DNA of 64,000 bases from Candidatus Pelagibacter sp. TMED166 (GTDB taxonomy: Bacteria > Pseudomonadota > Alphaproteobacteria > Pelagibacterales > Pelagibacteraceae): NCBI GenBank assembly GCA_002171015.1, contig NHHP01000001.1, forward strand, positions 4,641-68,640, read 5' to 3'. This document shows positions 23,839 through 44,400 of the stretch, one piece after another. The notes under the pieces are model-generated. The model searched no databases, had not been told where the DNA came from, and was given only the letters and a program-made list of their open reading frames with translations. The position numbers were made by a program, and so were the translations under genes. Position 1 is the first letter of the stretch. Each line of letters starts with the position of its first letter.

Positions 23839-24174
23839 ATGAAACCTCGTTCCGCAAAGAATAAAGGTAAAAGGTTACAAAATCAAGTCAGAGACTTAAT
23901 CCTCGAAAAATTTAATCAGTTAGAACCAGATGATGTTCGTTCAATCACGATGGGTGATAGTGGTGAAGATATTCTTTTATCACCCGCGGCTCGTAAGCTA
24001 TTCCCATTCTCCGTCGAGTGTAAAAATCAAGAGAAACTAAACATTTGGAAATCATTAGAACAATCGGAAACAAATTGTGGTAATCACACACCTATGGTGA
24101 TATTTAAAAGAAACAGAACTAAAACATATGTTGCATTAGAATTTGACAAACTGTTAGAATTATTGAATGAATAA
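23839..24174 (+). CDS. PD-(D/E)XK-type nuclease (Holliday-junction-resolvase-like, tentative)
   Basis: 111 aa. N-terminal basic KNKGKRLQNQVRDLI, then GDSGEDILLS...FSVECKNQ gives a D...E-x-K arrangement. It sits next to the primase and SbcCD genes. Confidence 0.5.
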   Translation: MKPRSAKNKGKRLQNQVRDLILEKFNQLEPDDVRSITMGDSGEDILLSPAARKLFPFSVECKNQEKLNIWKSLEQSETNCGNHTPMVIFKRNRTKTYVALEFDKLLELLNE

Positions 24175-25111: not shown

Positions 25112-25289
25112 GTGGAAAGTCCATATTGACAACGATAAATTATGTGAAGAAGTTGTTGACCGCTTTGGTTTACACCGCTCCACTATATACTATGAAAATG
25201 GTGGACTCTCTGAAGAGACCGCTTGGGATATAATCGTACCTAATTCCAAAATCAACAAAGTCAAAAAATATCTAAAGGATAATACTTGA
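25071..25289 (+). CDS. hypothetical protein
   Basis: 72-aa ORF overlapping the primase 3' end by 41 nt. Its TGA overlaps the TTG start of the next gene (TTGA). Confidence 0.45.
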   Translation: MAKQKDIWRFNDDEWKVHIDNDKLCEEVVDRFGLHRSTIYYENGGLSEETAWDIIVPNSKINKVKKYLKDNT

Positions 25290-28686: not shown

Positions 28687-31600
28687 ATGGGATTTTTACC
28701 AAAGCGTTTAACATTACAGAATCTAGACCAAGTAAGTGTTTTCATCGAAGACACCGATAATCAATATTTTAACGTACAACACCTGCCAGAGACCCTAAGT
28801 CAAGGTAGACATGCTTTTAAACTATTTGGCTCGAACTTACTACGTGAAGGGATAGAATTAAAAATGGAGTTACTCGATTCTGAGGGTAACACTATTTTCA
28901 TGACACCTGTTGATTTTATAGGTGAAGAGACCCCACCGCATACCCCATATAGATATGTAACGATTGAAGTTTACTCCCCACCAATAAATTATCCTGGTAT
29001 CGCGACTCTGACCATTCTAGGTGAATTGAATCCTAATTTAGTCGATGTACCTATAGAATTTCAAAATGCGTACAACGTTAGATATCAGGTAGATATTGAT
29101 GTTGATTTATCAACAATTGTTAACACTCAACCTATTAGATTTTTTAAGAATCCAACTACAGAGTTTCAAGAGGTTGTTCAGGCAAAAACAGTACTATCTC
29201 CAATTAGTGAGTCAATTGTAAAGACAACCGCGAACGGATTGACAAGGTCGGATTTAAAAGGTTCGGTCATTGAGATACAATCAGGTAGTCTTGAGAAAGA
29301 AGCTCTACCTAATTCTGTTTCGGATACATTTAAGGATATCAGACGTTTTAAGGATGAGTTTAAATATAAGACAGGTCTAAGAGGTAAGGTTCCTAGCATT
29401 ATAAAAAGACGAGGATTGTCTAGAAGGTTCGCGTCTTTGGAACAACCAAAGTTTAAAATCAAAACATCAGCTGCGACATTTAGATCTGATATGCAGGGTG
29501 GGACGGTAGAAATTGGTAAACACGATGTAAAAATATTCACGGTCGATAGTATAACTGGTCAGACAAAGGAGAAGGTCGTAACCGTACCAAGATTCAAAAC
29601 CAAGATTCTAGAGGTTCTTGATGATAAGACAATCATACCAGAAGAACCACCTATAGTATTTTTACCAACTGGTAGTCAACCTTCAAACACCGACATACAA
29701 GAAGCTACGATAGAGGATTTCTCAAGTGCACCTATTACAGCATCTTTCAGTGCTGCTGATAGTTCACCATCCCAATCAATAGTAAACTTCGATTCCTTAC
29801 TTGATTTAACAATCAAGGATATGAGGACTTTTTCTGGTGATATATATAGGATACGAGTTCATGGAAAAAGTGAGGCTGCTGGTTCAGATTTCACAGTATT
29901 GACTGATGTCATAGTAGAATCACCAGAGTTATTAAAGGATGTAGATTCTCCGTCTGGTGTGCTACGAACAGGTTATTTTATCAATCAGTCACATATCAAT
30001 ACCTATTTAAACAAATTTTCAATGGACGGAACCACCAAGGGTACTAATGTAATATCAAACTATAATTCATCAAACATTATTGACGCTATAAATATTAGTG
30101 GTTCCAACCTAGGTTTGAATCAAAGTGTGGTCGTTGAAACTAAAATAGGACAATCATTTACCATTAGAAAGGATGTTACCTATACTTTATCGGCAAAAGT
30201 TAAAGGACAGATAAAAGACAAAGTTTTAGATGATAGTGGAACTGTTTCAAGAAAAGGTAAATTATATTTCCATCTGTCTGGTTCGAATATAAATGATTCA
30301 TCTCTCGTAACATCTCACAATAGATTTGGGTTTGAACTTAGGGATGAGGCGACCGGAGAGCCTGTTGTTTTACAATTAGATGAAGATATAGATGGTATTC
30401 AAAACTTCGAAACAATAGAACATACTTTTAAACCAAAATTTAATCTAGATAGGACTGTAAACACAGATACAGTCTTACAGTTGAGAGCTGAGTCTGGTGA
30501 ATGGTTTATAAGTGATTTATCTCTTAGACCAGCAATGGACACTGGATTCTCACCTGATGAATTTGATTTAAAAGTTCCGATACCGAGGTCTATAAGACCT
30601 GATAGATTTGATTTTCTAATAGAATATTTTGATATCAACAACAACGTGGCTGAAACCGTTACGGTATTACAAGATGTACCGATATCTGGTTCAGCATTGG
30701 TAATCGATGGTGATGGTAACCTTTTGACAGGATCTTTATTCCTAGGTAACGCTGTTGATTCAGGTATTGAAGCTGCTGGTGTAAACTCGGCATTCGTTAG
30801 GTCTGTTGGATATGAGGGTTTTGAAAGTGCATCTCTAGGTGGTAAGGGTGGATTCATGATTTTCAGCGGTTCTGTCTTACCCGACGCACCTGATAATTAT
30901 GTAGGTGCTGGTATTGAGATACATGATGGAACCACAGGTGTTGATGAAAGTTTTCTAAAATTTAGAACCAATCCATCACAGTTCGATGTTAAGACCTCGA
31001 CATTCTTTTTAGGTAAAAAATTAAATCCAGCAAATTTCATAAGTGGGTCTAACGGTAACCTACAAATATCCTCATCTAATTTTGAGTTGACCGCAGATGG
31101 TGATGTGACGATGTCTGGTGAGATTTCTGCTACTGGTGGAGCAATAGGTGGTTTTGATATCGGTAGTTCAACAATTTCTACCACGGGTGTCGTTCTTGGG
31201 GACTCATCAGAGGATTTATTTATTAGCTCAAGTGCTTTTAAAGTAGACCATAGTGGTAACATAACTGCATCTAATATAGATTTGGGTGGTACAATAAGTG
31301 CTACAAGTGGTGATGTTGGTGGATTTCAAATCAATGCAGGTTCGTTGACATCTGGTACCGGTGATAGTGCGATAACCATGAGTAGTGCTGATAAATTAAT
31401 ATCGATTGGTAGTGGTTCTACTTTCAATAAAGGTGATTTACGAGGTGGGTTTAGAGCCGGAATAGATACCGATGGAGTGTTCAAATTTGCTATTGGTAAT
31501 TCTGATTCATTCATACACGTTGATAACGATGGAGTAAGTATCAAGACAGAGGACATCAATGTTACAGCTTCGTTATTGAATATTGATGTCGATATATTTA

Positions 31601-34600
31601 GACTTAACGCTAATAATTTATTTATAAGTTCAAGTGAAGGTGGTATAATATCAGCTGGTAATCCTAGACCAACCGATATAGACGGAACCAATAAAGGTTT
31701 CTTCGTCAATGGTAGTACTGGTAAAGTGTTATTAGGTAATTCCAATGGTAGTCATATAAAATTTGATGGGACTAATACGAGTATTTCGTCATCGGCTTTC
31801 TTCCTAGGTTCGGAAGCTCAATTCGTAAGTGGTTCGAATGGTAATATAGAAATAAGTTCTAGTAATTTCCATCTCACAAATGCTGGTGATGTTACGATGG
31901 CTGGAACTATTACCGCGACCGCTGGTCAATTGGGTGGATTCGGAATCAGCAGTGACGCGATATCATCTGATAATTTCTTTATAAGTGGTGGAGCTGAGAA
32001 TAATGAATTCTTTATCTCATCATCAGCGTTCAACGTAAAAGCTAGTGGAAATGTTACAGCTTCAGCATTACAACTTAGTGGTGGTAGTGCAGGTGGATTG
32101 GTCGTAAGTGCTGGACAAATCGGTGTCGGTGAAATTCTGAAACTAAAGGATAGTGGACAGATAACAGGTTCGTCGGTTTTATTCACAGGTGGTAAGATAG
32201 CTTCATTTGATATAACAGATAATGTATTGAGTAACTCCCCAAACTTTTTTATAAGTGGTTCAGCGACAGGTAATAATTTTTTCATATCATCATCTAATTT
32301 CAACGTTAAGGCAAGTGGTGATGTATCAGCTTCAGCTATTCTATTAGGTGATAAAAGTGGTGGTCAATTTTTACAATTCGCGGGTGATACATTAACCGTA
32401 CAAGGTAATATATCTGCTGATAGTATATCGACCCCATCAGCAGCGGCTACACCTAGCTCGTCTTTATCATCAGATGGTCTGTTGAAAACAGTATCGGCTT
32501 CAATCGGTGGTTTTGAAATTGATGACCACAGTATACGAACAAGCGGTATAGAATTCAATAACTCAACACAACCTATATTCATAAGCTCAAGTGCTTTTAA
32601 AGTAGACCATAGTGGAAATGTCACTGCTAGTAATGTTGATTTAAGTGGTAAGATAACGGCAACTAGTGGAGAAATCGGTGGATTTAATATCGATAGTGAT
32701 GAAATAAAAAGTGGAACAAATATTAGTTTGAATTCAAACAACAAATCATTATCGATAAACAATAGTACGTTTGGAAATACCGGTATACAATTACAGTTCA
32801 ATAGTGGTACACCAAGAATGTTCGTTGGACAACAATTAGGTGAGTTCTTCAAGTTCGATGGAACTAATGTAGAAGTCAGCTCATCAAAATTTTTCTTCGG
32901 TAACAATACTAATTTTATAAGTGGTTCGTTGGGTAACATCAGTATACAGAGCAGTGGAGTTACCACCTTAAGTGGAAGTCAAGTCACAATACAAACACCA
33001 AAATTTTTCTTTGGTGGAGACTCACAATTCATAAGTGGTTCTAATGGCAATATAGAAATAAGTTCTAGTAAGTTTCATATCCAACCAGATGGTGATGTCA
33101 TCACAAACGATATTACCGCATCAAACGCAAACGTTAGTGGTAAGATAACCGCTACTTCTGGTGAAATCGGTGGATTCACGATAGGTGATGATTTATCAAA
33201 TAGTGCTGGTAGTACATTGAAACTCAAAGGTAGTACCGGTCAGATTACAGCCTCGGCAGCAAACATAACTGGTGATATTACTGCCGATACAATCACAGCT
33301 AATACAGCTGGGACTATTGCTAACTTCGAAATTAGTTCTACGGAAATAAAATCATCGAACAACCTTTTAAGATTGAAGTCAAATGGACAGATTACAGGTT
33401 CATCAGCACAAATCGCAGGTAACATTACTGCCACAAGTGGTCAAATAGCTGGATTTACAATTAGTGGTAATGAGTTGACCGCAACTAATTTTACTTTAGA
33501 CGCGAGTGGTAAATCGATATCACTTGGAACTGGTAATACAATTTTTATAGCGGATGCTGATGAAGGTATACAACTAGGACATGCCTCTTTCAATAGTGCT
33601 CCGTTTAGTGTAACTAAGGCTGGAGAGTTGAAAGCAACATCAGGCACTATTGGTGGTTGGAGTTTAAGTGCAAACACAATAGTAGGTGCTAATCTAACTT
33701 TAAATTCAAGTGGTCTGATAGAAACAAATGATTTCGCAAGTGGAGTCAAAGGTTTCAGATTAGATTCTACCAACAACGGACAAGCCGAGTTCGAGAATAT
33801 ATCGATTCGTGGTACTTTGAAAACAACAGTATTCGAAAAAGAAACTGTAAACGCTGTTGGTGGTCAGTTATATGTTGCGAACTCTACAACACTTACTGGT
33901 TCTTTAGCCATATCCGCTAGTGCAGCTACGATGAGTGTCGTCAATGTTACCGGTTTTACAGGTAGTTATGCGAATGATGGTGAAATACTAGTTGCTAAAA
34001 AAATAACCGACACAGGTTTTTCAACAGAATATATTTTAGTACAAAGTGCGTCACGAGATAATCCGTCAAGTGATACCGATTTCTCTGGTAAACTATTCGT
34101 TGTCAGAGGATATCAAAGTGGTAGTAGTGGGGACTTCCTAGGTGATAACGCTAATTTGTCTCAATCATTGGCACCTGGTCAGGTATTGGCTTCAACTGGT
34201 AGGATAGGAACAGGTTATATCAGATTAAATGCTAATCCAAATGATACCACAACACCATTTATAGATATTGTTGAAAGAACTGGTAGTGGTGTATTCGATG
34301 TAGATTTAAAAGCTAGACTCGGTGATTTGAGTGGGTTGAGTACAACGAAGTTACATGGAACCGACCCAGCAAACGCTGGTTTCGGACTCTACAGTCAAAA
34401 TGTTTTTCTCGAAGGTGGGATAGTTGCCAACACAGGTTCTATCGGTGGTATAGAAATGGAAGCTGGTAAACTATACAACGGAGTTGGTGTACACGGAAAT
34501 TCTAATACAGGTTTTTATGTCGATAGTTCCAGTAAATTTAGTTTGGGTGATAAGTTGGTTTGGGATGGAAGTGATTTATCTGTCGAAGGTTCAATAACCC

Positions 34601-37600
34601 TAACAGGTGGGACTGGAGTAGCCACCCCATCGGATGTATCCGCGAGTTTGAATGCATCATCGAGTGCACTACAGGATAACATAGATAACGTTGAATCCAA
34701 TGTATCAGGTGCTTTTACAGAAACATCAGCGTCTATCGCTACAGATTTAAATACAGTTGAATCCAACATATCGGGTGCTTTCACAGAGGTATCAGCTTCG
34801 ATAGTCCAAAACATAGTAACCGATATAAGTGGTTCGATACTAGATATTCCACCGGCACCTGGTGGTGAGGGTTTATTTTTAAACTTCCCACACATGGGAT
34901 ACTTTAGTGGTAGTGAATTTACAGCTTTCATATCAGCAAGTGGTGGTTTCCTATTCAAAGCTGATGACAACAATCTGATATCTTTTGGACAGACTGTAAC
35001 AGGTGGAGACGGAATAGATAGTAAATCGTTTGTTCTTAAATCAGATAACGTATTCCTAAGTGGTTCAAAGGTAAACATTCTAGGAGAAAGATTTTTCTTG
35101 GGTGGTCAGTCACAATTTGTTAGTGGTTCGAACGGAAATATTGAAATAAGTTCATCTAGGTTTCATGTGAAACCCGATGGTGATATAGTGGTTCAGAAGG
35201 TTACGGCTACAGAGGGTAGTATCGGTGGTTATACAATAGATGGTCATAGTATATCTACCACCGGTGTTGAAATTAACGATTCCACACAACCAATATTTAT
35301 AAGTTCAAGTGCTTTTAAAGTTGACCATGTAGGTAATGTCACGGCTAGTAACGTGGACTTATCAGGTAAGATTACTTCAACGGAAGGTAGTATCGGTGGA
35401 TTCGATATAGGCTCATCTCAGATATCGAGTTCAACCGGTGGATTGATTTTAAACTCAGATGGTGGTATCACGGGCTCTAAGTTTTTATTAGAAGGCGGTA
35501 TCATTACCGATAGTGTAACGATAGAAGGGTCGTTATCAGCTAACTCAATATCTACACCGACAGGTGGTTCACCCTTGGCTCAGATAACCGACCAAGGTTT
35601 CGCTAAGTTCGTATCAGCGTCGATTGGTGGATTCGATATATCACAAACTGAAATCAAGGATACAGACGAAGACTTAATTTTAAAATCAAGTGGACAAATC
35701 ACTGCATCTGCAGCACAGATAACTGGTGAACTCAACATTACCGGTGGTGCCACCAAAACCCAATTGGATGTCATAGGTCAACAAACCGCATCATTGGATG
35801 CTAGTGTATCCGCGATAGGAGCAACGACCGCATCATTGAACACAGCGACTGGATCACTCCAATCAGATATCGATACAGGTCTGGCATCAGTCAGTTCATC
35901 GGTATCAGGTGCTTTTACCGAAGCTTCAGCTTCGTTGGCAACAAATCTTAACACCGTAGAAGCCAATGTATCGGGTGCTTTTACTGAGGTATCTGCTTCC
36001 ATTGTTGAAAAAATTGTAACGGATTCAACCGGTTCAATTTTAGAAGTCCCACCATCACCAGCGGGAAGTGGATTGTATTTAAATTTTCCACACATGGGAT
36101 TCTACGATGGAGCGGAACCAGCAAGTACGACATATATCGTTACAGCACCGGGTGGTTCGGGTGGTGGATTCTACATAGATGGTGTTCAGAGAGCAACATT
36201 AGAATTACAAGTAGGATACACCTATAGATTTAATACCTCTGCTGTTGAGGGTTCTCATCCGTTTAGATTTTCAACAGATTCTGATAATGATAATGCTTAT
36301 ACAACTGGTGTTACGGTTGGTAGTGGATACGTAGATATAGTGGTTACTTCAAGCACACCATCAACTCTATATTATTATTGTACGGCACATGATGGTATGG
36401 GTGGACAGATAAATGTCGTGGATAACTCAGAGTATAAAGCTTTTATATCAGCATCTGGTGGATTTCTATTCAAAGCTGATAACAATAATCTGATATCCTT
36501 TGGTCAATCCGTAGATGGTGGGGATGGAACTTCAACGAAATCATTCGTGCTTCGGTCTGATAATGTTTTCCTAAGTGGTTCTAATGTAAATATTTTAGGG
36601 GAGAGGTTTTTCCTCGGTGGACAGGCACAATTCATTAGTGGGTCGAATGGTAACCTAGAAATTACCTCAAGTAACTTTCATCTAGACAGAGATGGTAATG
36701 TCACATTGGATGGAACTATAACGGCTACAACCGGTGAAATCGGTGGATTTAGTATATCTTCAAACTCCATATCAAGTTCGAATGATATTTTACAATTAAA
36801 ATCAAGTGGTCAGATTACCGCATCAGCAATACAACTTACTGGTGAGGTCAACATAACAGGTGGTTCGGCTAAATCACATTTGGAGCAAATCGGAGAATCA
36901 ACAGCATCATTGAATACGAGTGTTGTTGCAATCGGACAATCAACTTCATCCCTTGACGCGAGTGTTGTATCGATAGGTCAACAAACCGAATCTTTGGACA
37001 ATAGTGTTATTTCTATTGGTGAGAAATCCGCATCATTAGACGCAAGTGTTGTTTCCATAGGAGAATCAACAGCATCTCTAACTACTGCCTCACAATCTAT
37101 GGCGGCTAGAGCTTCATTGACTGCGACAGGTTTGGATATATTTGATAGTGGTAGTAATAGGATTGCTGAGTTTAGTGGAAATGTCACAATAGGTAAAACC
37201 GCGTTTCCAGAGAACAACGTTTTTATCGATAACGATAGTGTTGAAATCAGAAGAGGTTCACAGGTATCGGCTTCCTTTGGTTCAACGACGACGATTGGCC
37301 CAACATCCAACAAACACGTCAAAATAACAAGCGATGCATTGGAGATTAAAACCGATGCCAATACAACGGTTCTATCGGCATCTGCTGCAGGTTTGGAAAT
37401 GGTCGGTACGATTAATGCCAGTGCTGGTGATATCGGTGGATTCGGTATATCGGCGACAACAATCAGTAGTTCTAATTCAGATTTGATATTGAACTCCAAC
37501 GGACAGATAACCGCTTCAGCGGTATCGATGTCAGGTGCGATTAATGCGACTAGCGGTTTGATTGGTGGTATGAGGATTGAATCCAACAGCATAGAGAGTG

Positions 37601-40600
37601 GTGCGGATTCAGGCGATGGTTCGGTGATAACCTTGACCGTGACAGCTCAAGATAGTAATTATTTCATCATAGACGGAGTCAATCAACCAACGTTGACATT
37701 CCTACCTGGTAACACCTATAGGTTTGATTTATCGGATGATTCAACTAATGGTCATCCTTTCAGATTTGCCACATCTGGTGATGGTAGCGGTACTGTTGTG
37801 TACACCGAGGGTGTGACATCGAGTGGAACTCAAGGAGATCCTGGTGCGTATCGACAGATAGCCGTGACACAAAATACTCCAACGAATTTATTCTATAGAT
37901 GCACAAATCATAGCGGTATGGGTAATTCAATTACCGTCGATAAAACCTCTCCGTTGATACTAGATGGTAACACAGGACAGATCAGTGGTTCTAGATTTCT
38001 TTTCACGGGTGGTAAGATTAGCGGTTCTAGTGTCGAGATTGATGTTGAAAACGTTAAGATAAGCGGTAGTTCGGTAGATATCGCCACACCTAAGTTTTTC
38101 CTAGGCGGTGGTGGACAATTCATAAGCGGTAGTAATCAAAACATTGAGATTAGCTCTAGTAACTTTCATCTACAACCCGATGGTGATGTTGTGATGAGCG
38201 GTACTGTCACGGCAACAACAGGTGAGTTAGGTGGTTTCGCGATAACACCGACTGCAATATCTGAATCCAACAACCGTTTAATATTAAGGTCGGATGGTAG
38301 GATTACGGCTTCGTTCATGCAAATGACCGGTGAAGTAAACATAGTCGGTGGTTCTGCTAAAACTCATTTAGAATTAATCGGTGAACAGACCGCGTCGTTG
38401 AATACGAGCGTGGTTTCGATTGGAGCTCAAACTGCATCTCTTGACACAAGTGTTGTATCGATAGGAGCACAGACTGCGTCATTAGATGCTAGTGTAGTTT
38501 CAATCGGTGAGAAATCCGCATCGTTGGATACTAGTGTCGTATCGATAGGAGCACAGACTGCATCATTAGATGCGAGTGTTGTTTCGATAGGGGCACAAAC
38601 AGCGTCATTGGACACGAGTGTGGTTTCAATAGGTGCGACTACGGCTTCGATACAAACCGTAACCGCTTCTCTACAGGTAGCTTCAGCGTCAATGGCGTCA
38701 ACCGCGGCATTGACAGCGACTGGTCTAGACATTTTCGATAGCGGTAGTAACAGAATTGCACAATTTAGTGGTAACGTTACGATAGGTAAGACAAGTTTTC
38801 CTGAAAATAATGTTTTTATCGATGAAGATTCTGTGGAGATACGTAGAGGTTCTCAGGTATCGGCGTCGTTTGGAAGCACAACAACCATAGGCCCAACCAC
38901 GGATAAGCATGTAAAAATTACATCAGATGCTTTGGAGATTAAAACAGATTCCGATACAACTGTTTTATCAGCATCCGCAGCTGGTCTGGAGATGGAGGGT
39001 ACGGTTAGAGCAACTGCAGGTGAAATTGGTGGATTCACAATAAATTCTACAGAGATAAGTGCTAGTGGATTACTGTTAAAATCAAGTGGACAGATAACAG
39101 GTTCAGCTGCTAATCTTAGTGGTAGCTCGGTTGATATAAGAACACCGAAGTTTTTCTTAGGTGGCAGTGGACAATTTGTAAGTGGTTCAAATGGAAACAT
39201 TGAAATAAGTTCATCTAAGTTTCATGTGAAACCAGATGGTGATATTGTGGTTAGAAAGGTTAATGCTGATGATGGTACAATCGGAGGTTTTAAAATTGCA
39301 AATACATTTTTAACATCAAGTGCAGGTAGTGGTTTTGGTATTTTAATTGCAGAGCCAGATACAAATCCAACAAATGATTTCAATATAGATGAAGATGGAG
39401 CATTGGGTATATCATTTGGTCTACATCGAAGACCTAATGGTACAACCTATACTTTAAATACATCAAATATGGATTTAGACAATGCTACTAATTATCCAAA
39501 TTTATGGGTAATGGGTTCTGCTACTGATAATGAAAACATAATATTTAGAGTTGGAAAATCAGGTGGTGAGGGTATCAGATTTGAAAACGAAAAGATTGAA
39601 GTAAGTTCTTCAGCATTTTTACTTGGTGATAAGAATAGTAATTTCGTAAGTGGTAGTAATGGTAACATAGAGATAAGTTCATCTAAGTTTCATGTGAAAC
39701 CAGATGGTGATATAGTAGTTAGAAAAGTAGATGCTGTTGAAGGTTCTATATCAGGATTTTCAGTTGAAAATAATAAATTACTAGGTCGTACAGTTTCGGA
39801 TTTTAGTGGTACGGTTATAACATCTTCTGTTTTATTTACACCTGATGTTGAAAATACTGGAGGACTAGGAGGCATACCAGCAATAGGCATAACTGCAATG
39901 AGTGGTTCGGTAATGGGAGCTGGGTTTAGTGTATTATGTAAACCAAACGATGACGAGCTTGGTGTTGACTTTAGAATTGGCCAAGCAACAGGTGAAGGAA
40001 TAGCTACTGGAACAGGTGGATTAAGAATTGTAGCTGTACAGAAAGAAGATGGTTCGGATGATTTTGGTTACTCGGTAAACGGTCAAAGTTTTACAGATTT
40101 CACCTCAGGTTCATCTTTTAATTTTGGCGGTGCAGGAAATGGCTTGAGTTATGGTCTCACCGGTAATAGATTCAAATACCTAATGGGTAAGAGCAGTGGT
40201 GCTCATTTAAAATTTGATTCTGCTGTAAATGAATTATGGATTAGTTCTTCGTATCAAAATATGGAAACTGATATAGGTAAGACAGTAATTTATGGAAATT
40301 CAGTATCTGCTTCAAGAAGTACAGCGATAAGTGACCTAAACTCATACACTACAAGTTCGTTAAGTCATCTTCATCTTGATGGGTTAACATTCAATACCGC
40401 AACTAGTGTTCGTTCAGCACTTCTAGGAGCTGCAGATGGAGAACAACATTCAATAACATTTAACAGACTGTTATATTTTGAGAGTACTCAAGGTGGTGAA
40501 AGCATGCGCCTTAGTCGTAATAGTGAAGTTGTTATTGCAGGTGCATTATCTAAGGGTTCTGGTACATTTAGAATATCACATCCAGATCCTAAAAAGAATG

Positions 40601-40941
40601 AAAAGTATTATTTACAACATTCGTTTGTAGAGTCGCCAACTCGTGGAGATAATATTTATAGATGGCAAATAGATGTTAAGGAAAAACGACACACAATTAA
40701 ATTACCTGATTATTATAAACATTTAAATGAGAATGATATGGTTTGGATAAATGCAGTAAAACATTTTGGTAAGGCTTATGGTGAAGTAAATGTAGAACAA
40801 ACAGAACTAACAATACATACCGATACTGATGGATTATACAATGTTCTATTGATTGGAACACGAAAAGATGAGGTAGCAACAAAAGCATTTGCAGGTGTAG
40901 AACCATCAAAATCTTATATAAAAGAATTAGAGGAGAAATAA
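28687..40941 (+). CDS. giant repetitive tail-fibre-like virion protein (4084 aa)
   Basis: One uninterrupted ORF. It has at least 9 copies of a 45-50-aa module, FFLGG.QF(V/I)SGSNGNIEISSS.FH..PDGD....(I/V)TAT.G.IGGF.I. It also has 14-aa coiled-coil-like repeat arrays, two about 105-aa cupredoxin-like inserts, and a non-repetitive C-terminal domain (about 40480-40938). Confidence 0.85.
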   Translation: MGFLPKRLTLQNLDQVSVFIEDTDNQYFNVQHLPETLSQGRHAFKLFGSNLLREGIELKMELLDSEGNTIFMTPVDFIGEETPPHTPYRYVTIEVYSPPINYPGIATLTILGELNPNLVDVPIEFQNAYNVRYQVDIDVDLSTIVNTQPIRFFKNPTTEFQEVVQAKTVLSPISESIVKTTANGLTRSDLKGSVIEIQSGSLEKEALPNSVSDTFKDIRRFKDEFKYKTGLRGKVPSIIKRRGLSRRFASLEQPKFKIKTSAATFRSDMQGGTVEIGKHDVKIFTVDSITGQTKEKVVTVPRFKTKILEVLDDKTIIPEEPPIVFLPTGSQPSNTDIQEATIEDFSSAPITASFSAADSSPSQSIVNFDSLLDLTIKDMRTFSGDIYRIRVHGKSEAAGSDFTVLTDVIVESPELLKDVDSPSGVLRTGYFINQSHINTYLNKFSMDGTTKGTNVISNYNSSNIIDAINISGSNLGLNQSVVVETKIGQSFTIRKDVTYTLSAKVKGQIKDKVLDDSGTVSRKGKLYFHLSGSNINDSSLVTSHNRFGFELRDEATGEPVVLQLDEDIDGIQNFETIEHTFKPKFNLDRTVNTDTVLQLRAESGEWFISDLSLRPAMDTGFSPDEFDLKVPIPRSIRPDRFDFLIEYFDINNNVAETVTVLQDVPISGSALVIDGDGNLLTGSLFLGNAVDSGIEAAGVNSAFVRSVGYEGFESASLGGKGGFMIFSGSVLPDAPDNYVGAGIEIHDGTTGVDESFLKFRTNPSQFDVKTSTFFLGKKLNPANFISGSNGNLQISSSNFELTADGDVTMSGEISATGGAIGGFDIGSSTISTTGVVLGDSSEDLFISSSAFKVDHSGNITASNIDLGGTISATSGDVGGFQINAGSLTSGTGDSAITMSSADKLISIGSGSTFNKGDLRGGFRAGIDTDGVFKFAIGNSDSFIHVDNDGVSIKTEDINVTASLLNIDVDIFRLNANNLFISSSEGGIISAGNPRPTDIDGTNKGFFVNGSTGKVLLGNSNGSHIKFDGTNTSISSSAFFLGSEAQFVSGSNGNIEISSSNFHLTNAGDVTMAGTITATAGQLGGFGISSDAISSDNFFISGGAENNEFFISSSAFNVKASGNVTASALQLSGGSAGGLVVSAGQIGVGEILKLKDSGQITGSSVLFTGGKIASFDITDNVLSNSPNFFISGSATGNNFFISSSNFNVKASGDVSASAILLGDKSGGQFLQFAGDTLTVQGNISADSISTPSAAATPSSSLSSDGLLKTVSASIGGFEIDDHSIRTSGIEFNNSTQPIFISSSAFKVDHSGNVTASNVDLSGKITATSGEIGGFNIDSDEIKSGTNISLNSNNKSLSINNSTFGNTGIQLQFNSGTPRMFVGQQLGEFFKFDGTNVEVSSSKFFFGNNTNFISGSLGNISIQSSGVTTLSGSQVTIQTPKFFFGGDSQFISGSNGNIEISSSKFHIQPDGDVITNDITASNANVSGKITATSGEIGGFTIGDDLSNSAGSTLKLKGSTGQITASAANITGDITADTITANTAGTIANFEISSTEIKSSNNLLRLKSNGQITGSSAQIAGNITATSGQIAGFTISGNELTATNFTLDASGKSISLGTGNTIFIADADEGIQLGHASFNSAPFSVTKAGELKATSGTIGGWSLSANTIVGANLTLNSSGLIETNDFASGVKGFRLDSTNNGQAEFENISIRGTLKTTVFEKETVNAVGGQLYVANSTTLTGSLAISASAATMSVVNVTGFTGSYANDGEILVAKKITDTGFSTEYILVQSASRDNPSSDTDFSGKLFVVRGYQSGSSGDFLGDNANLSQSLAPGQVLASTGRIGTGYIRLNANPNDTTTPFIDIVERTGSGVFDVDLKARLGDLSGLSTTKLHGTDPANAGFGLYSQNVFLEGGIVANTGSIGGIEMEAGKLYNGVGVHGNSNTGFYVDSSSKFSLGDKLVWDGSDLSVEGSITLTGGTGVATPSDVSASLNASSSALQDNIDNVESNVSGAFTETSASIATDLNTVESNISGAFTEVSASIVQNIVTDISGSILDIPPAPGGEGLFLNFPHMGYFSGSEFTAFISASGGFLFKADDNNLISFGQTVTGGDGIDSKSFVLKSDNVFLSGSKVNILGERFFLGGQSQFVSGSNGNIEISSSRFHVKPDGDIVVQKVTATEGSIGGYTIDGHSISTTGVEINDSTQPIFISSSAFKVDHVGNVTASNVDLSGKITSTEGSIGGFDIGSSQISSSTGGLILNSDGGITGSKFLLEGGIITDSVTIEGSLSANSISTPTGGSPLAQITDQGFAKFVSASIGGFDISQTEIKDTDEDLILKSSGQITASAAQITGELNITGGATKTQLDVIGQQTASLDASVSAIGATTASLNTATGSLQSDIDTGLASVSSSVSGAFTEASASLATNLNTVEANVSGAFTEVSASIVEKIVTDSTGSILEVPPSPAGSGLYLNFPHMGFYDGAEPASTTYIVTAPGGSGGGFYIDGVQRATLELQVGYTYRFNTSAVEGSHPFRFSTDSDNDNAYTTGVTVGSGYVDIVVTSSTPSTLYYYCTAHDGMGGQINVVDNSEYKAFISASGGFLFKADNNNLISFGQSVDGGDGTSTKSFVLRSDNVFLSGSNVNILGERFFLGGQAQFISGSNGNLEITSSNFHLDRDGNVTLDGTITATTGEIGGFSISSNSISSSNDILQLKSSGQITASAIQLTGEVNITGGSAKSHLEQIGESTASLNTSVVAIGQSTSSLDASVVSIGQQTESLDNSVISIGEKSASLDASVVSIGESTASLTTASQSMAARASLTATGLDIFDSGSNRIAEFSGNVTIGKTAFPENNVFIDNDSVEIRRGSQVSASFGSTTTIGPTSNKHVKITSDALEIKTDANTTVLSASAAGLEMVGTINASAGDIGGFGISATTISSSNSDLILNSNGQITASAVSMSGAINATSGLIGGMRIESNSIESGADSGDGSVITLTVTAQDSNYFIIDGVNQPTLTFLPGNTYRFDLSDDSTNGHPFRFATSGDGSGTVVYTEGVTSSGTQGDPGAYRQIAVTQNTPTNLFYRCTNHSGMGNSITVDKTSPLILDGNTGQISGSRFLFTGGKISGSSVEIDVENVKISGSSVDIATPKFFLGGGGQFISGSNQNIEISSSNFHLQPDGDVVMSGTVTATTGELGGFAITPTAISESNNRLILRSDGRITASFMQMTGEVNIVGGSAKTHLELIGEQTASLNTSVVSIGAQTASLDTSVVSIGAQTASLDASVVSIGEKSASLDTSVVSIGAQTASLDASVVSIGAQTASLDTSVVSIGATTASIQTVTASLQVASASMASTAALTATGLDIFDSGSNRIAQFSGNVTIGKTSFPENNVFIDEDSVEIRRGSQVSASFGSTTTIGPTTDKHVKITSDALEIKTDSDTTVLSASAAGLEMEGTVRATAGEIGGFTINSTEISASGLLLKSSGQITGSAANLSGSSVDIRTPKFFLGGSGQFVSGSNGNIEISSSKFHVKPDGDIVVRKVNADDGTIGGFKIANTFLTSSAGSGFGILIAEPDTNPTNDFNIDEDGALGISFGLHRRPNGTTYTLNTSNMDLDNATNYPNLWVMGSATDNENIIFRVGKSGGEGIRFENEKIEVSSSAFLLGDKNSNFVSGSNGNIEISSSKFHVKPDGDIVVRKVDAVEGSISGFSVENNKLLGRTVSDFSGTVITSSVLFTPDVENTGGLGGIPAIGITAMSGSVMGAGFSVLCKPNDDELGVDFRIGQATGEGIATGTGGLRIVAVQKEDGSDDFGYSVNGQSFTDFTSGSSFNFGGAGNGLSYGLTGNRFKYLMGKSSGAHLKFDSAVNELWISSSYQNMETDIGKTVIYGNSVSASRSTAISDLNSYTTSSLSHLHLDGLTFNTATSVRSALLGAADGEQHSITFNRLLYFESTQGGESMRLSRNSEVVIAGALSKGSGTFRISHPDPKKNEKYYLQHSFVESPTRGDNIYRWQIDVKEKRHTIKLPDYYKHLNENDMVWINAVKHFGKAYGEVNVEQTELTIHTDTDGLYNVLLIGTRKDEVATKAFAGVEPSKSYIKELEEK
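36112..36426 (+). other. cupredoxin-like domain 1 inside the giant fibre (aa 2476-2580)
   Basis: ...GYTYRFNTSAVEGSHPFRFST...LYYYCTAHDGMGGQINV. His2524, Cys2565, His2568 and Met2571 sit in the H...C-x2-H-x2-M spacing of type-1 copper sites (amicyanin-type short loop). Confidence 0.6.
36895..37104 (+). repeat. in-frame 42-nt (14-aa) tandem repeat, 4 full + 1 degenerate unit
   Basis: ESTASLNTSVVAIG / QSTSSLDASVVSIG / QQTESLDNSVISIG / EKSASLDASVVSIG / ESTASLTTASQSMA. Confidence 0.85.
37624..37941 (+). other. cupredoxin-like domain 2 inside the giant fibre (aa 2980-3085)
   Basis: ...GNTYRFDLSDDSTNGHPFRFAT...LFYRCTNHSGMGNSITV, with His3023, Cys3072, His3075, Met3078. Confidence 0.6.
38383..38676 (+). 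repeat. in-frame 42-nt (14-aa) tandem repeat, 6 full + 1 degenerate unit
   Basis: (E/A)QTASL(N/D)(T/A)SVVSIG repeated six times, with one EKSASLDTSVVSIG variant, then ATTASIQTVTASLQ. Confidence 0.9.
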
Positions 40942-40942
40942 A

Positions 40943-41425
40943 ATGTTAAAAGAATTTAACGATATAATAGAAATAACCCTACATCACGAGGGTGGATATG
41001 TAAATGACCCGAATGATTTAGGCGGAGAAACCAATTTTGGTATCGCTAAACGTTTCTATCCCGACGTAGATATAAAAAATTTAACGAAAGATAAAGCAAA
41101 AGATATTTATAGAAGAGATTATTGGGATAAAAACAAAGTCGATGAGATGCCTGAACAGTTGAGACATATATATTTCGATATGTGTGTAAATCAAGGCAAA
41201 GGAACCGCAGTAAAAGTTTTACAAAGAGCTTGTAATTCCAAGAAAGCAGACCTCAAGGTCGATGGTGGGTTGGGCCCTAAAACATTAGGGGCTATCAAAG
41301 AATTCAATCCATCGCTACCAAGGGTTCGTTGCTATAGATTGAAACATTACTATGATTTGGTGAATAGGAAACCAGAACAAGAAAAGTTCTTATTCGGATG
41401 GTATCGTAGAACAATGGAAGTATAA
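40943..41425 (+). CDS. GH108-family lysozyme (endolysin or virion lysin) with peptidoglycan-binding C-terminus
   Basis: ITLHHEGGYVNDPNDLGGETNFGI matches the GH108 N-terminal signature (EGGY..D..D.GG.T..GI). VDGGLGPKTLGAIKEF matches the PG-binding helical motif (DG..GP.T..A). Confidence 0.8.
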   Translation: MLKEFNDIIEITLHHEGGYVNDPNDLGGETNFGIAKRFYPDVDIKNLTKDKAKDIYRRDYWDKNKVDEMPEQLRHIYFDMCVNQGKGTAVKVLQRACNSKKADLKVDGGLGPKTLGAIKEFNPSLPRVRCYRLKHYYDLVNRKPEQEKFLFGWYRRTMEV

Positions 41426-44400
41426 ATGAATAAATTGACCGAATGGTTGACAAAACCATTTTTAGAAAAAGATATTATCAAAGAGGGTGTCAGAGATCCT
41501 GGTATCTTCAAAGCTATATTTTTAGCTGGAGGACCTGGTAGCGGTAAATCATTCGTAGCACAGAAGTTATTCGGTATACCAGAGAAGATAAATGTATCGA
41601 AGACTGGTCTGAAGATGGTAAATCAAGATAACGAACTTGAACTTTTGTTAAAAAAGTATTTTGGTACAACTGATATTGACAATATGCCTGATGAGTTATT
41701 TCAAGATTTGACTGGTGTGGATAAACAAGGTAAACCCGTAGATTACGACACGAGTGGATTAAGAAAGTTTGCTAAATCTTTAAGTAAAGAAAGATTAAGA
41801 CTTTACACCAATGGAAAGTTAGGTGTTATCATAGATGGTACTGGACATAACTTTGGTAAGATTAAAAAAAGAAGAAAAGAATTGATGGATTTAGGATACG
41901 ATACCTATATGGTTTTTGTAAATACCTCATTAAAGATTGCTAGAGAAAGAAATGAAAAAAGAGATAGGGTCGTACCAGACGCTATTGTTAAAAAAAGTTG
42001 GGAAGATGTACAATCAAATTTAGGTGCCTTTCAAGGTTTATTCGGTGGTTCTAACTTTATGATTGTTCAGAATAACAAGATGTTATCAGATGCTCAGATA
42101 AAGAAACATTTTAAGATGTTGGTCAGTAAAGGTATAGATTCATTTTTAAAGAAACCAATTAAGAGTAAGGTTGGTAAAGCTTGGTTACGAAGAGAAAAGA
42201 AACATCAAAAGGTATTTAAAGATCCTGGCCAGTCAAAGTTTTTTGAATCTATAAATATTCCGATAAAAGTAGGTGATACAATCCTTACCGGTAGATTTAA
42301 AAACAAAAAAGTTGTTGTAAAATCAATCGGAAAAGACGACCACGGTATGCCCACAATAAATGGAAAAAAGATAACAACAATTCGTACGATGAAAAACGTT
42401 GATGAGGCACCTAGGGTTCCTAGAAAGAAAGGACAACATCGTGGTTCAAAGTCTCATTCAGATTTATATACGGATGAGAATCCAAAAGGAACAATCAAAG
42501 GATTGAAGTTTGCTACGGTTAAAGATGCAAAAGCATCAGTCAGTAAAATAAATGGAAGTGGTAAAACTCACGCACATAAGATACAAGCAGCTGTAGCTAT
42601 GGAACAGAGAGCTAAAGAAATGGGTAAAGCTTCTCAAGCGGCTGTATATAGAACTTATATCAATAAGATGAAAAAGAAAACAAAAGAGAAAAATGAAGAA
42701 TTTGGATTACCTGCTGGTGAGATACCATCACCAAGTCGTAAGATGGTAAAGAAGATGAAGAAACGTGGTAACACATCGGTTCCCTACGGTAGTGGTTACA
42801 AGAAAGTAAATGAAAATGATAAAGCTGAGTTATACAAATTGTATAGTATGGGTATGAAAGCATTTTCTGGTAGTGCTAAACATAAAGAAATACTAAAGAA
42901 GATAAAAGTTCTAAGAAAAAAATTAGGTATGAATGAACAAAAAGAAATCAAAAAAACTATCGGTATATTCGGTGGTAGATTCCAACCGTTTCATAGTGGA
43001 CATTTAGCCACATATAAATGGTTATCTAAACAAGTGGATGAAGCTTATATAACAACTTCTAATATTAAACAACTTCCAAGACACCCAATGGACTTCAAGG
43101 AAAAAGTCCGTCACATGGTAAAGATGGGTATTCCAAAGAATCGTATTGTTCAAGAAAGAACACCTTATGTAGCAGACAAAGTTTTAAAGAAATTTAATCC
43201 TAATACCACTGCTGTAGTTTATGCTTTTGGACAAAAAGATGCTGGTAGATTAAAAGGTGGTAAGGGTAAATACTTTCAAGATTATAAAAAAAGTAGAGAG
43301 GATATCCGAGGATACAAAGAACATGGATATTTTATCACTGCACCACAATTTGGTGACATGAGTGGTACTAAGATGAGGTCACTATTGGGTGACCCTAGGA
43401 TAGATGATAAAGAAAGAAGAAAATCTTTCAAAAAAGTTTTCGGATATTTCGACCAAGGTATCTATAATATGATGACCAATAAATTCAGAAAGTTATACGA
43501 GGGTATAGAGGACTTTATACTCAAAACAGATTTTAAAGAATTAGTCAACGAAGCAAGTTTAACAGCGATAAACCCAACAGATGATGGCCCACCAACTTTC
43601 TACAGAGGTTTCAATGATTATAAGAATCAATCCAAAAGATGGTTGGATGATATGTACGGTGATACTGGTTGGGAAGTCGTACAATATATTTTAGGAAAAC
43701 ATGCTATAAATCCTGATTATGATTACACCCTTAAATACAACGTAGTTCCTGCTGTAGCTTATGGTCGTAAACAATCTGGTAAATATGGTACTAGATTTGG
43801 TACAGACAATCCAATAAAATCCTATAAAAATTATATAGAAGGAACTGTATTGCATAATATTGGGTATGAGTTGGTAAAATGGATGGGTATTACACCAGAT
43901 GGTAATAATTATACTGGTGTAGAGGTGGAGACTCCAGTGGTACCAGGTATCGGTGATGATAATGTTGGTAATACAGAAAAACAAAAATTAAAACTAAAAG
44001 AGATAAATTTAAATGAAGAAGTAGAAATATTGATTGGGGAAAGGAAAAAACTTTTACCGTCAAGAGACCACAAATATGTTTCGATTGGTTTCGGTAGGTA
44101 TAAATTAAAAGGTAAGGAAAACGAAGACGACGCCGATGTATATTTCAAATCAAAAGATGGAACTTATATAAAATCAAATGACCAAAAAAGTGATAATAAA
44201 AATTTTAAAGAAGGTGTATTACTAGAGGGTGGAGCTTACGGACATTTGAACCATCCTTTTGATGACAAAAATCTTACATTTTCAGATTTTAAAACACTAA
44301 TTATTAATACCCTACAAGGTAAATTAGACAAAGAGGGTGCAGTCACAGAAAAAACAGATGGTCAGAACATAATGATAAGTTGGAAGAACAATAAACTTAT

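What the first reader, a model, noticed from the sequence alone, without database searches (positions are those of the whole stretch)
36112..36426. Cupredoxin-like domain with a complete type-1 copper ligand set cleanly inserted into one copy of a duplicated fibre segment
Seen: two ~150-aa segments exactly 400 residues apart (from 34702 and 35902) are collinear: VSGAFTE.SAS...L(F/Y)LNFPHMG(Y/F)... then ...(F/Y)(T/K)AFISASGGFLFKAD.NNLISFGQ. In copy 1 the junction reads FPHMGYFSGSEFTAFISASGG. In copy 2, 105 residues are inserted at that point: ...TYIVTAPGG..FYIDGVQRATLELQVGYTYRFNTSAVEGSHPFRFST...VDIVVTSSTPSTLYYYCTAHDGMGGQINVV. Established: blue-copper proteins bind Cu through His...Cys-x(n)-His-x(n)-Met. 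The C-x2-H-x2-M spacing and the Y.C..H..MG.I.V ending match amicyanin-like cupredoxins. Inference: this is a metal (copper?) centre displayed on a phage fibre. It could have a redox, metal-sensing, structural or receptor-binding role. I do not know of a characterised example.
Basis: partly seen in the sequence, partly recalled or inferred. Interest (0 to 1): 0.8.

Follow-up and report, generated by a model that had tools for sequence, protein, structure and literature searches.

The report
Copper-site cupredoxin domains on phage fibre
A giant fibre-like protein of a marine-type phage carries two small domains with the fold and all four metal-binding residues of blue-copper proteins; the same unnamed domain occurs in thousands of ocean phage tail proteins, so many marine virus particles may carry copper.

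Summary
A 4084-aa ORF (28687-40941, +) contains two paralogous segments that are 70% identical. They differ by one clean 105-aa gap, aa 2476-2580, which is exactly nt 36112-36426.

AlphaFold2 models the insert with pLDDT 91. Every top Foldseek hit in the PDB is a cupredoxin (rusticyanin, pseudoazurin, plastocyanin, amicyanin).

H2524, C2565, H2568 and M2571 sit where type-1 copper ligands sit. The C-x2-H-x2-M loop has the amicyanin spacing.

- A second copy lies at about 37609-37947 (H3023/C3072/H3075/M3078).
- The domain is a large family. It matches 9230 representative proteins and 348 sequenced phages, nearly all marine (cyanophages, pelagiphages, OM43 phages), in tail-fibre and baseplate proteins. 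It has no Pfam or NCBIfam model, and I found no paper describing it.

The ligands are kept or lost together. They are complete in 79 of 80 single-copy proteins. In three related giant fibres the ligand cysteines are the only cysteines in roughly 3200 to 4000 residues.

Best reading: a phage-specific, mobile, metal-binding (probably copper) cupredoxin module displayed on the fibre, acting in adsorption or stability. Metal identity and role are untested.

The parts
28687..40941 (+). Giant repetitive Ser/Gly-rich virion (fibre-like) protein of 4084 aa that carries both cupredoxin-like domains
   Evidence: ORF list and translation. Orthologues of about 3950 aa with the same N-terminus (MGFLPK...) occur in IMG/VR contigs L007 and L008. 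PHROGs gives only phrog_19846, function unknown.
36112..36426 (+). Cupredoxin-like domain 1 (aa 2476-2580), the 105-aa extra piece in repeat module copy 2
   Evidence: Single clean gap in the paralogue alignment. AF2 pLDDT 91.4, pTM 0.84, 8 strands. Foldseek PDB top hits are all cupredoxins, best 1rcy at E 2e-5 and TMq 0.59. BFVD matches to marine phage tail proteins at TM 0.8-0.9.
36256..36258 (+). Codon of His2524, the putative N-terminal Cu ligand (HPF motif)
36379..36399 (+). Ligand loop C2565-T-A-H2568-D-G-M2571 (C-x2-H-x2-M)
   Evidence: Cys ends strand 7; His and Met lie in the strand 7-8 loop.
37609..37947 (+). Cupredoxin-like domain 2 (HMM envelope aa 2977-3086), 40% identical to domain 1. 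Ligands H3023 (37753-37755), C3072 (37900-37902), H3075 (37909-37911), M3078 (37918-37920)
   Evidence: AF2 pLDDT 91.6. Foldseek PDB top 50 hits are all cupredoxin-family proteins. It lies within a 177-aa extra stretch relative to the paralogous segment aa 3432-3522.
35887..36111 (+). Upstream flank of repeat module copy 2 (aa 2401-2475), ending ...LYLNFPHMGFYDG
36427..36711 (+). Downstream flank of repeat module copy 2 (aa 2581-2675), starting SEYKAFISASGGFLFKADNNN
34687..35196 (+). Repeat module copy 1 (aa 2001-2170) with the empty junction FPHMGYFSG|SEFTAFISASGG between nt 34911 and 34912

Best explanation
The 105-aa segment is an autonomous cupredoxin (blue-copper-type) beta-sandwich domain. 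A sister copy lies 1.5 kb downstream. Both belong to a large, unnamed family found almost only in phages.

Each copy sits in a loop of a repeated module of a 4084-aa virion fibre-like protein. Each keeps a complete type-1 site: His before strand 4, Cys at the end of strand 7, and His and Met in a short amicyanin-length loop before strand 8.

The most likely mechanism has three steps:
1. The domain binds one metal ion through H2524/C2565/H2568/M2571. The metal is most probably copper.
2. In canonical cupredoxins both chain ends lie at the pole opposite the metal site. As an insert, the domain should therefore project sideways from the fibre shaft with the metal site at its exposed tip.
3. It acts as an accessory module of the adsorption apparatus. 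The metal locks the fold for life in seawater and/or forms part of the surface that touches the host envelope. It is probably not a catalytic or respiratory electron carrier.

Shown here: the insert, the fold, ligand placement, ligand co-conservation, the phage-restricted marine distribution, and variable occupancy of the insertion site.

Inferred: metal binding, copper as the metal, the outward orientation, and the adsorption or stability role.
For: Insert geometry: one clean 105-aa gap in a 70%-identical paralogue pair.

Fold: AF2 pLDDT 91.4 and 91.6. All significant PDB fold matches are cupredoxins, including loop-swap constructs carrying CTPHPFM or CAAHAAM loops. Weak sequence matches align the C..H..MG loop with plastocyanin and pseudoazurin.

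Ligands:
- H, C, H and M are invariant in the clean alignment.
- They are complete in 239 of 309 full-length instances. By copy number: 79/80 in single-copy proteins, 143/171 in 2-3-copy proteins, 17/58 in proteins with 4 or more copies.
- They are kept or lost together: H49/C90 give 246 both, 50 neither, 13 discordant; C90/H93 give 245, 58 and 6.
- Second-sphere positions P50, Y63 and P83 track the presence of Cys.
- The ligand Cys are the only Cys in the related giant fibres: L007 has 3 of 3, L008 2 of 2, L009 2 of 2. In the window they are 2 of 3 in 4084 aa. No disulfide partner exists.

Virion and tail context:
[quoted passage not shown] The domain is often at or near the C-terminus.
- BFVD matches include proteins whose records name them virion structural proteins, in S-TIM5 and others.
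- It also lies between adaptor genes in a Tara podophage.

Modularity: the junction N[FYH]P[HY]xG...SE[FY][TK]AFISASGG is filled in 1 of 2 modules in the window, 2 of 3 in L007 and 1 of 3 in L008.

Phage restriction: a scan of 185,579 species genomes found only 17 loci. All are marine SAG or MAG contigs; at four of the five loci whose neighbours I checked, those neighbours are phage genes.
Against: - No metal was measured. I had no model coordinates, so site geometry (ligand-ligand distances) was not checked.
- Phage fibres fold in the host cytoplasm, where copper is tightly buffered. Classical cupredoxins are metallated outside the cytoplasm, and they are known to pick up Zn when expressed in the wrong compartment (established knowledge). 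Copper loading would therefore need a chaperone or would have to happen after lysis.
- About a quarter of the domain instances sampled lack the ligands. The fold evidently has a metal-independent use.
- Met and the following Gly stay conserved even where the ligands are lost. Met conservation alone is therefore not evidence for a metal site.
- The instances analysed are the 150 best hits of a profile built from ligand-bearing sequences, which inflates the ligand-complete fraction.
- The protein has no tail-fibre family match of its own. It lies between replication/repair genes and an endolysin-like gene, not among the baseplate genes.
Confidence: 0.6

Rival explanations
1. Same fold and same four ligands, but the site holds zinc (or another abundant cytoplasmic metal) as a purely structural ion. 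In this reading the domain is a metal-stapled decoration with no copper chemistry.
For: The protein is made and assembled in the cytoplasm and has no export signal context; it is an internal segment of a 4084-aa ORF. Cupredoxins readily take Zn in the wrong compartment (established knowledge). The conservation evidence shows that a metal site is under selection but does not say which metal.
Against: The His2-Cys-Met set, with a short C-x2-H-x2-M loop on a cupredoxin scaffold, is the hallmark of type-1 Cu. All fold matches are copper proteins. Structural Zn sites usually use more Cys or His and no Met, yet Met is the best conserved of the four positions.
Confidence: 0.2
2. The copper centre is functionally redox-active or is itself recognised at the host surface. 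It might gate adsorption by oxidation state, generate local oxidative chemistry, or mimic a copper-loaded ligand. The last option would be a copper analogue of the Ferrojan Horse idea, in which metal on tail fibres is proposed to exploit host uptake systems.
For: In the canonical cupredoxin topology the metal site would sit at the distal, exposed pole of an inserted domain (inference plus established topology). The domain sits at or near fibre C-termini in pelagiphage and cyanophage proteins. The family is tied to the ocean habitat rather than to one host group. The Ferrojan Horse hypothesis is stated in bioRxiv 10.1101/674382.
Against: The hosts include SAR11, Prochlorococcus and OM43, which are very different cell envelopes. 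No known common copper-uptake receptor comes to mind (my own knowledge). No partner protein, receptor or redox substrate was identified here. Ligand-free copies coexist in the same proteins.
Confidence: 0.12
3. A metal-free Ig-like/beta-sandwich decoration. The H/C/H/M residues would be relics of a cupredoxin ancestor and would now have only packing roles.
For: 70 of 309 instances lack the full ligand set, yet the domains persist, mostly in tandem arrays. Beta-sandwich accessory domains are common on phage structural proteins (established knowledge).
Against: A relic would decay position by position. Instead the ligands are kept or lost as a set and are complete in 79 of 80 single-copy proteins. 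A lone, unpaired Cys is retained as the only Cys in extracellular proteins of roughly 3200 to 4000 aa across diverged relatives.
Confidence: 0.06

Closest known systems
Amicyanin / plastocyanin / pseudoazurin small blue copper proteins (Pfam PF00127 Copper-bind; type-1 cupredoxins)
   Same: Eight-strand Greek-key beta-sandwich. His before strand 4, Cys at the end of strand 7, His and Met in the strand 7-8 loop. The aromatic run Y-Y-C before the Cys matches the pattern in the plastocyanin alignment (F-Y-C-T-P-H). The C-x2-H-x2-M spacing is identical to the amicyanin loop CTPHPFM.
   Different: Sequence similarity is below threshold: PF00127 scores 12.8 bits against a cut-off of 21.2 (E 0.16), and the PDB profile search gives E 0.07. 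TM-scores are only about 0.55-0.6. The domain is embedded in a giant virion protein rather than being a free exported electron carrier. The N-terminal His is followed by Pro in 92% of ligand-bearing copies. The family is restricted to phages.
Rusticyanin (best structural match, 1rcy) and AcoP of Acidithiobacillus
   Same: Top Foldseek matches for both domains: E 2e-5 and 1.4e-4, TMq 0.58-0.60. Both are type-1 cupredoxins that work in a harsh extracytoplasmic medium.
   Different: Rusticyanin is about 150 aa with an N-terminal extension (TMt only about 0.44). Identity is 16-20%. Its biological context differs: iron-oxidation electron transfer in acidophiles.
Ig-like / FN3 / BIG2 accessory beta-sandwich domains on phage structural proteins
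   Same: These are promiscuous small beta-sandwiches added to, or inserted in, tail, fibre, baseplate and neck proteins of unrelated phages. Copy number is variable and presence differs between close relatives.
   Different: Those domains have no metal-ligand set. This family keeps a co-conserved His/Cys/His/Met site and is confined to marine phages in the collections searched.
Cyanophage-encoded plastocyanin (petE auxiliary metabolic gene)
   Same: A cupredoxin with a type-1 ligand set encoded by marine cyanomyoviruses.
   Different: petE is a free-standing, host-derived photosynthetic electron carrier and is not a virion component (established knowledge). The domain here matches plastocyanin only at E about 0.25 and sits inside structural proteins.
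Metal ions in phage fibres: the His-x-His iron sites of the T4 gp37 tip, the basis of the Ferrojan Horse hypothesis
   Same: A transition metal carried on a phage adsorption organelle. The hypothesis links virion-bound metal to marine trace-metal cycling (bioRxiv 10.1101/674382).
   Different: There the metal is iron, held by histidines contributed by the trimeric fibre itself (my own knowledge). Here each site lies within one autonomous cupredoxin domain and has a thiolate ligand.

Membership tests
Cupredoxin fold (superfamily) | Greek-key beta-sandwich of 7-8 strands | tested here: met
   AF2 models have pLDDT 91.4 and 91.6, with 8 and 9 strands. All Foldseek PDB hits at E<=1e-3 are cupredoxin-family proteins.
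Type-1 (blue) copper site | Ligand set His ... Cys-x(n)-His-x(m)-Met | tested here: met
   H2524, C2565, H2568, M2571 and H3023, C3072, H3075, M3078. Invariant in alignment A2.
Type-1 (blue) copper site | Topological placement: first His at the start of strand 4, Cys at the end of strand 7, His and Met in the loop to strand 8 | tested here: met
   DSSP of the model: H49 precedes strand 51-54; C90 ends strand 85-90; H93 and M96 lie in loop 91-96 before strand 97-103. The same holds in domain 2.
Type-1 (blue) copper site | Ligand atoms within bonding geometry of one metal position | not testable with these tools
   Model coordinates are not returned, so no distances could be measured.
Type-1 (blue) copper site | Binds copper, with a ~600 nm charge-transfer band and narrow A-parallel EPR | not testable with these tools
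   Needs protein chemistry.
Type-1 (blue) copper site | Ligands conserved under selection in homologues | tested here: met
   239 of 309 instances are complete; 79 of 80 in single-copy proteins. Keep-or-lose-together pattern gives Fisher p of 1e-43 to 1e-55, not corrected for relatedness of the sequences. The ligand Cys are the sole Cys in related giant fibres.
Pfam PF00127 Copper-bind (plastocyanin/azurin family) | Score at or above the gathering threshold (21.2 bits) | tested here: not met
   Domain 1 scores 12.8 bits, E 0.16. Domain 2 has no hit. Some multi-copy relatives reach 22-23.5 bits only as a whole-protein sum, with no single stretch passing on its own. I therefore do not file it as a PF00127 member; it is a separate family of the same fold.
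Amicyanin-type ligand loop | C-x2-H-x2-M spacing | tested here: met
   CTAHDGM and CTNHSGM. Solved Cu proteins with CTPHPFM or CAAHAAM loops appear among the fold matches: 2ux6 and 2vmj; 2fta, 3fs9 and 2xv2.
Phage tail fibre | Match to a tail-fibre family, or a position within a tail gene module | tested here: inconclusive
   PHROGs gives only phrog_19846, function unknown. The N- and C-terminal parts find almost nothing in phage records. Neighbours are primase, an SbcC-like protein and an endolysin-like gene. The domain itself occurs in annotated tail fibres and gp9-like proteins of other phages.

The most novel reading that the evidence does not exclude
Marine phage virions are copper metalloparticles. 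Thousands of phage lineages infecting cyanobacteria, SAR11, OM43 and probably Bacteroidota display type-1 copper centres at the exposed tips of fibre-borne cupredoxin domains. In this reading the copper takes a direct part in host recognition or in redox-gated adsorption. Virions would then also form a previously unrecognised pool of organically bound copper in seawater, a copper counterpart of the Ferrojan Horse hypothesis.
Probability: 0.15. Interest if true: 0.9.

Novelty: new variant of a known kind. Interest (0 to 1): 0.72.

Why it matters
If the sites bind copper, a redox metal cofactor is a routine part of the adsorption apparatus of the ocean's most abundant viruses: cyanomyoviruses, pelagiphages and OM43 phages.

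That would give three things:
- A new class of virion metalloprotein.
- A direct experimental handle on how seawater chemistry affects infection: copper dependence of adsorption and stability, tested with C-to-S mutants.
- A testable link between viruses and marine copper speciation.

Even if the metal is only structural, the family is very large (9230 representatives at 50% identity) and has no model in the Pfam or NCBIfam copies searched. A named model would annotate thousands of 'hypothetical' marine viral proteins. It would also mark structural genes in viral dark matter.

Tried and rejected
- Megablast of 35500-38500 against 50,697 phage records found nothing, so there is no close sequenced relative.
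- PHROGs on the whole 4084-aa protein gave only an unknown-function family.
- tblastn of its N-terminal 650 aa and C-terminal 384 aa found one weak hit each. These did not establish how or where the protein attaches.
- Pfam and NCBIfam have no model for the domain. The weak hits (PF25489 At5g54830-like, NF041519 bluetail, TIGR02656 plastocyanin) are all below cut-off or are whole-protein sums. I did not treat them as membership.
- An FN3 reading (Cdon/Boc, E 0.14-0.6) was rejected. The fold search returns cupredoxins almost exclusively; the one exception I noted in the top 50 is a titin Ig domain at rank 37.
- Recent horizontal acquisition of the insert is not supported. Its GC (~0.40) matches the flanks.
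- There is no microhomology or direct repeat at the insert boundaries.
- A cellular origin or cellular homologues with the same loop was checked. Only 17 loci turned up in 185,579 species genomes. At four of the five loci checked, neighbouring genes matched phage families (internal virion protein, major head protein, ferredoxin auxiliary gene and two unknown-function PHROGs).
- Nine literature searches were run, seven of them for a prior description (cupredoxin, plastocyanin-like, copper-binding or blue copper, combined with phage, tail fiber, cyanophage or pelagiphage). None found a description. The one candidate I opened concerns a viral nirK gene, not this domain.
- There are no tRNA genes in the window.
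Full report
**1. What is in the sequence**

The finding lies inside one very long ORF, 28687..40941 on the + strand, 4084 aa. Translating 36112-36426 reproduces the quoted 105 residues.

A local alignment of aa 1985-2198 with aa 2381-2700 gives 147/210 identities (70%). It contains a single long gap:
- aa 2076-2170 align with 2581-2675.

The extra piece is therefore aa 2476-2580 = nt 36112-36426, to the residue. The two paralogous modules are about 70% identical at DNA level too, so the duplication is old. There is no repeat or microhomology at the boundaries, and the insert has the same GC as its flanks.

**2.

The motif HPF...C-x2-H-x2-M occurs twice. The second copy spans aa ~2977-3086 (nt ~37609-37947), with H3023, C3072, H3075 and M3078. 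It is 40% identical to the first.

It also sits in an extra stretch. Relative to the paralogous segment aa 3432-3522, the region aa 2948-3124 is an additional 177 aa that contains the domain.

The whole protein has only three cysteines, and two of them are the ligand cysteines.

**3. Fold**

AlphaFold2, with small alignments of homologues, models both domains confidently:

| Domain | pLDDT | pTM |
|---|---|---|
| 1 | 91.4 | 0.84 |
| 2 | 91.6 | 0.85 |

Foldseek against the PDB returns cupredoxins for both. The hits are rusticyanin (1rcy; E 2e-5 and 1.4e-4; TMq about 0.59), AcoP, pseudoazurin, plastocyanin, amicyanin, copper nitrite reductase and multicopper oxidase domains.

The secondary structure places the four residues exactly where type-1 ligands belong:
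- H49 of the domain comes immediately before strand 51-54.
- C90 is the last residue of strand 85-90.
- H93 and M96 are in the loop before the final strand, 97-103.

The C-x2-H-x2-M spacing is that of the amicyanin loop CTPHPFM. Solved copper proteins carrying that loop, or CAAHAAM, appear among the fold matches: 2ux6 and 2vmj; 2fta, 3fs9 and 2xv2.

At sequence level the relationship is below threshold. Pfam Copper-bind scores 12.8 bits against a cut-off of 21.2. Plastocyanin 1b3i gives E 0.25. Pseudoazurin 3tu6 gives E 0.068 with the profile, aligned on the C..H..MG loop.

So this is a cupredoxin by fold and site. It is not a member of PF00127 by that family's own criterion.

**4. The family**

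- tblastn of the domain against 50,697 phage records finds 348 records. By first word of the organism name: Synechococcus 251, Cyanophage 57, Prochlorococcus 27, Pelagibacter 4, Methylophilales 4, Marine 3. No enterobacterial, Pseudomonas or other non-marine phages appear.
- In the records I opened, the domain is at the extreme C-terminus of the S-SM1 gp9-like protein. It lies about 60 aa from the C-terminus of the fibres of pelagiphages HTVC028P and EXVC032P and of uvMED fosmid S30-C28. It is internal in the P-TIM68 and S-TIM66 proteins.
- BFVD models of such proteins match at TM 0.8-0.9, including proteins whose records name them virion structural proteins (S-TIM5).
- An exhaustive profile search of 1.84 billion representatives finds 9230 proteins at E<=1e-3 and 5494 at E<=1e-10, with up to 26 copies per protein.
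- In the 90%-clustered collection there are 3638 hits. None of the 120 hits listed carries a precomputed Pfam domain, and the only names given are 'hypothetical protein'. NCBIfam has nothing either.
- A scan of one genome for each of 185,579 bacterial and archaeal species, using the loop pattern, found only 17 loci. All are on marine single-cell or metagenome-assembled contigs. I checked neighbouring genes at five of these loci, and four had matches to phage families (internal virion protein, major head protein, a ferredoxin auxiliary gene, unknown-function PHROGs).
- In a cosmopolitan Tara podophage a 233-aa carrier sits between two adaptor-like genes.

The family is thus a promiscuous module of marine phage structural proteins.

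**5. Are the ligands under selection?**

In a clean 12-sequence alignment H, C, H and M are invariant.

I extracted 309 full-length domain instances from the 150 best representatives plus the phage proteins. The full set H/C/H/M is present in 239 of them. Completeness falls with copy number:

| Copies per protein | Complete ligand sets |
|---|---|
| 1 | 79 of 80 |
| 2-3 | 143 of 171 |
| 4 or more | 17 of 58 |

The residues are kept or lost as a set:

| Pair | Both present | Neither | Discordant |
|---|---|---|---|
| H49 / C90 | 246 | 50 | 13 |
| C90 / H93 | 245 | 58 | 6 |

Positions P50, Y63 and P83 follow the cysteine. This suggests an extended site signature.

The strongest single fact comes from the related giant fibres found in IMG/VR. 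There the ligand cysteines are the only cysteines in the whole protein:

| Locus | Length | Domains | Cys |
|---|---|---|---|
| L007 | 3955 aa | 3 | 3 |
| L008 | 3947 aa | 2 | 2 |
| L009 | at least 3177 aa | 2 | 2 |

An unpaired thiol kept in an extracellular protein argues for a metal thiolate.

Two cautions apply. The sample is biased toward sequences resembling a ligand-bearing profile. The Fisher tests ignore relatedness among the sequences.

**6. Modularity of the insertion**

The junction N[FYH]P[HY]xG[FY]x...SE[FY][TK]AFISASGGF recurs in these fibres and is either empty or filled:

| Fibre | Empty | Filled |
|---|---|---|
| Window | 1 | 1 |
| L007 | 1 | 2 |
| L008 | 2 | 1 |

A second site, before ...SPLILDG, is filled in all three.

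The domain therefore behaves as a cassette at defined loops. Whether a given difference arose by insertion or by deletion cannot be decided.

**7. The surrounding genome**

The window is a phage. It encodes:
- a baseplate wedge protein (2361-4349)
- a large terminase (46360-47949)
- a portal protein (47953-49794)
- a major head protein (55963-57615)
- a head-tail adaptor-like protein (57730-58893)
- a primase (24167-25111)
- an SbcC-like protein (25286-28441)
- an endolysin-like protein (40943-41425)

The major head protein is closest to those of an uncultured 484-kb phage, Microcystis phage Mel-JY01, Baltic Flavobacterium phage 'immuto' and Rhodothermus phage RM378, at 37-57% identity. It is therefore a distant T4-like myovirus of an aquatic host, possibly a member of the Bacteroidota.

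The giant protein has no tail-fibre family match. 'Fibre' rests on its repetitive Ser/Gly-rich build and on where the domain occurs in other phages.

**8. How it most likely works**

Shown: an autonomous cupredoxin domain with a co-conserved type-1 ligand set, inserted in loops of a repetitive virion protein, belonging to a marine, phage-restricted family.

Inferred:
- It binds one metal ion, most probably copper. The His2-Cys-Met set on this scaffold, with an amicyanin-length loop, is the signature of type-1 Cu.
- In the canonical cupredoxin topology strand 1 runs toward the metal site and strand 8 runs away from it. Both chain ends therefore lie at the opposite pole. An inserted domain should stick out from the shaft with the metal site at its tip.
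- Its role is accessory to adsorption. The metal either rigidifies the fold for a long extracellular life or forms part of the surface that contacts the cell.

The main difficulty is metallation. Fibres fold in the cytoplasm, where copper is scarce and cupredoxins tend to take zinc (established knowledge). A structural-zinc reading (about 0.2) and post-lysis loading both remain open. A direct redox or recognition role for the copper is possible but has no specific support (about 0.12). A metal-free relic is unlikely (about 0.06), given the all-or-none ligand pattern.

**9. Comparison with what is known, and novelty**

It works like a small blue copper protein and like the Ig-like accessory domains of phage structural proteins. 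It is a member of neither family by their own criteria.

I found no solved structure of the family; the best PDB match has a TM-score of about 0.6. There is no family model in the Pfam or NCBIfam copies searched, and no description in the literature I could search. Superfamily-level labels in InterPro, Gene3D or CDD could exist; I could not check them.

I rate it a new variant of a known kind: a known fold and site in a new context (virion-borne, phage-exclusive, marine). Interest is high but depends on showing metal binding.

Noticed in passing
window 37609-37947: A second cupredoxin-like domain with a full H/C/H/M set lies in the same ORF. It is 40% identical to the first and sits in a 177-aa extra stretch relative to the paralogous segment aa 3432-3522.
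   Followed up: yes
window 36888-37076 and 38376-38635: Arrays with a 42-nt (14-aa) period encode ...SVVSIGAQTASLDT... 4.5 and 5.5 times. They look like a coiled-coil or segmented shaft region of the giant protein, and they flank the second cupredoxin domain on both sides.
   Followed up: partly
window 41426-45451: A 1341-aa ORF lies directly after the endolysin-like gene. It has PHROG matches to an ATPase-like family at the N-terminus and a cytidyltransferase-like family at aa 504-709. This is an unusual large enzyme-like protein between the fibre and the terminase.
   Followed up: no
window 7495-11973: A 1492-aa ORF in the baseplate region has no PHROG match at all.
   Followed up: no
window 40300-40941 (C-terminal ~150 aa of the giant protein): Residues 217-362 of the C-terminal 384-aa query (about nt 40435-40872; motif ...FRISHPDP...YLQHSFVESP...NIYRW...) match only a hypothetical protein of Cyanophage S-TIM54, at 32% identity. 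This may be a shared tip or chaperone-like module.
   Followed up: partly
P0018, P0020, P0041 (representative proteins): Some proteins carry many tandem copies of the domain: 26, 14 and 10 matched stretches, or 19, 11 and 8 at the stricter threshold. In these copies the His/Cys/His ligands are mostly replaced (for example Y/E/S or Q/S/S) while Met-Gly is retained. This looks like a metal-free sub-branch of the family.
   Followed up: partly
BFVD hits A0A481YVH3, A0A481Z6J5, A0A481Z7Q7: 'Beta-sandwich proteins' assigned to Marseillevirus and Pithovirus metagenomic bins (LCMAC201, LCPAC302/304) match the model at TM 0.74-0.79 and 25-28% identity. The domain may also occur in giant-virus bins, or phage contigs may have been misbinned.
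   Followed up: no
L040-L042, gene at 8001-8702: A 233-aa protein carrying the domain is seen on 24 or more contigs, including Tara samples. It lies between two SU10_adaptor-like genes of a ~35-53 kb marine podophage, so the domain also decorates the neck/adaptor region.
   Followed up: partly
window 55963-57615: The major head protein is most similar (51-57% identity) to those of an uncultured 484-kb phage (LR756508), Microcystis phage Mel-JY01 and Flavobacterium phage immuto. No nucleotide-level relative exists in the phage collection. No tRNA genes are present in the 64 kb.
   Followed up: partly
domain positions 41-48 (window 36232-36255 and the equivalent in domain 2): The loop before the first His (consensus D-Q-S-x-S-N-x-G) is conserved in both ligand-bearing and ligand-free copies. 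It may therefore serve a metal-independent function. Window domain 1 departs from the consensus (NTSAVEGS), while domain 2 keeps it (DLSDDSTNG).
   Followed up: no
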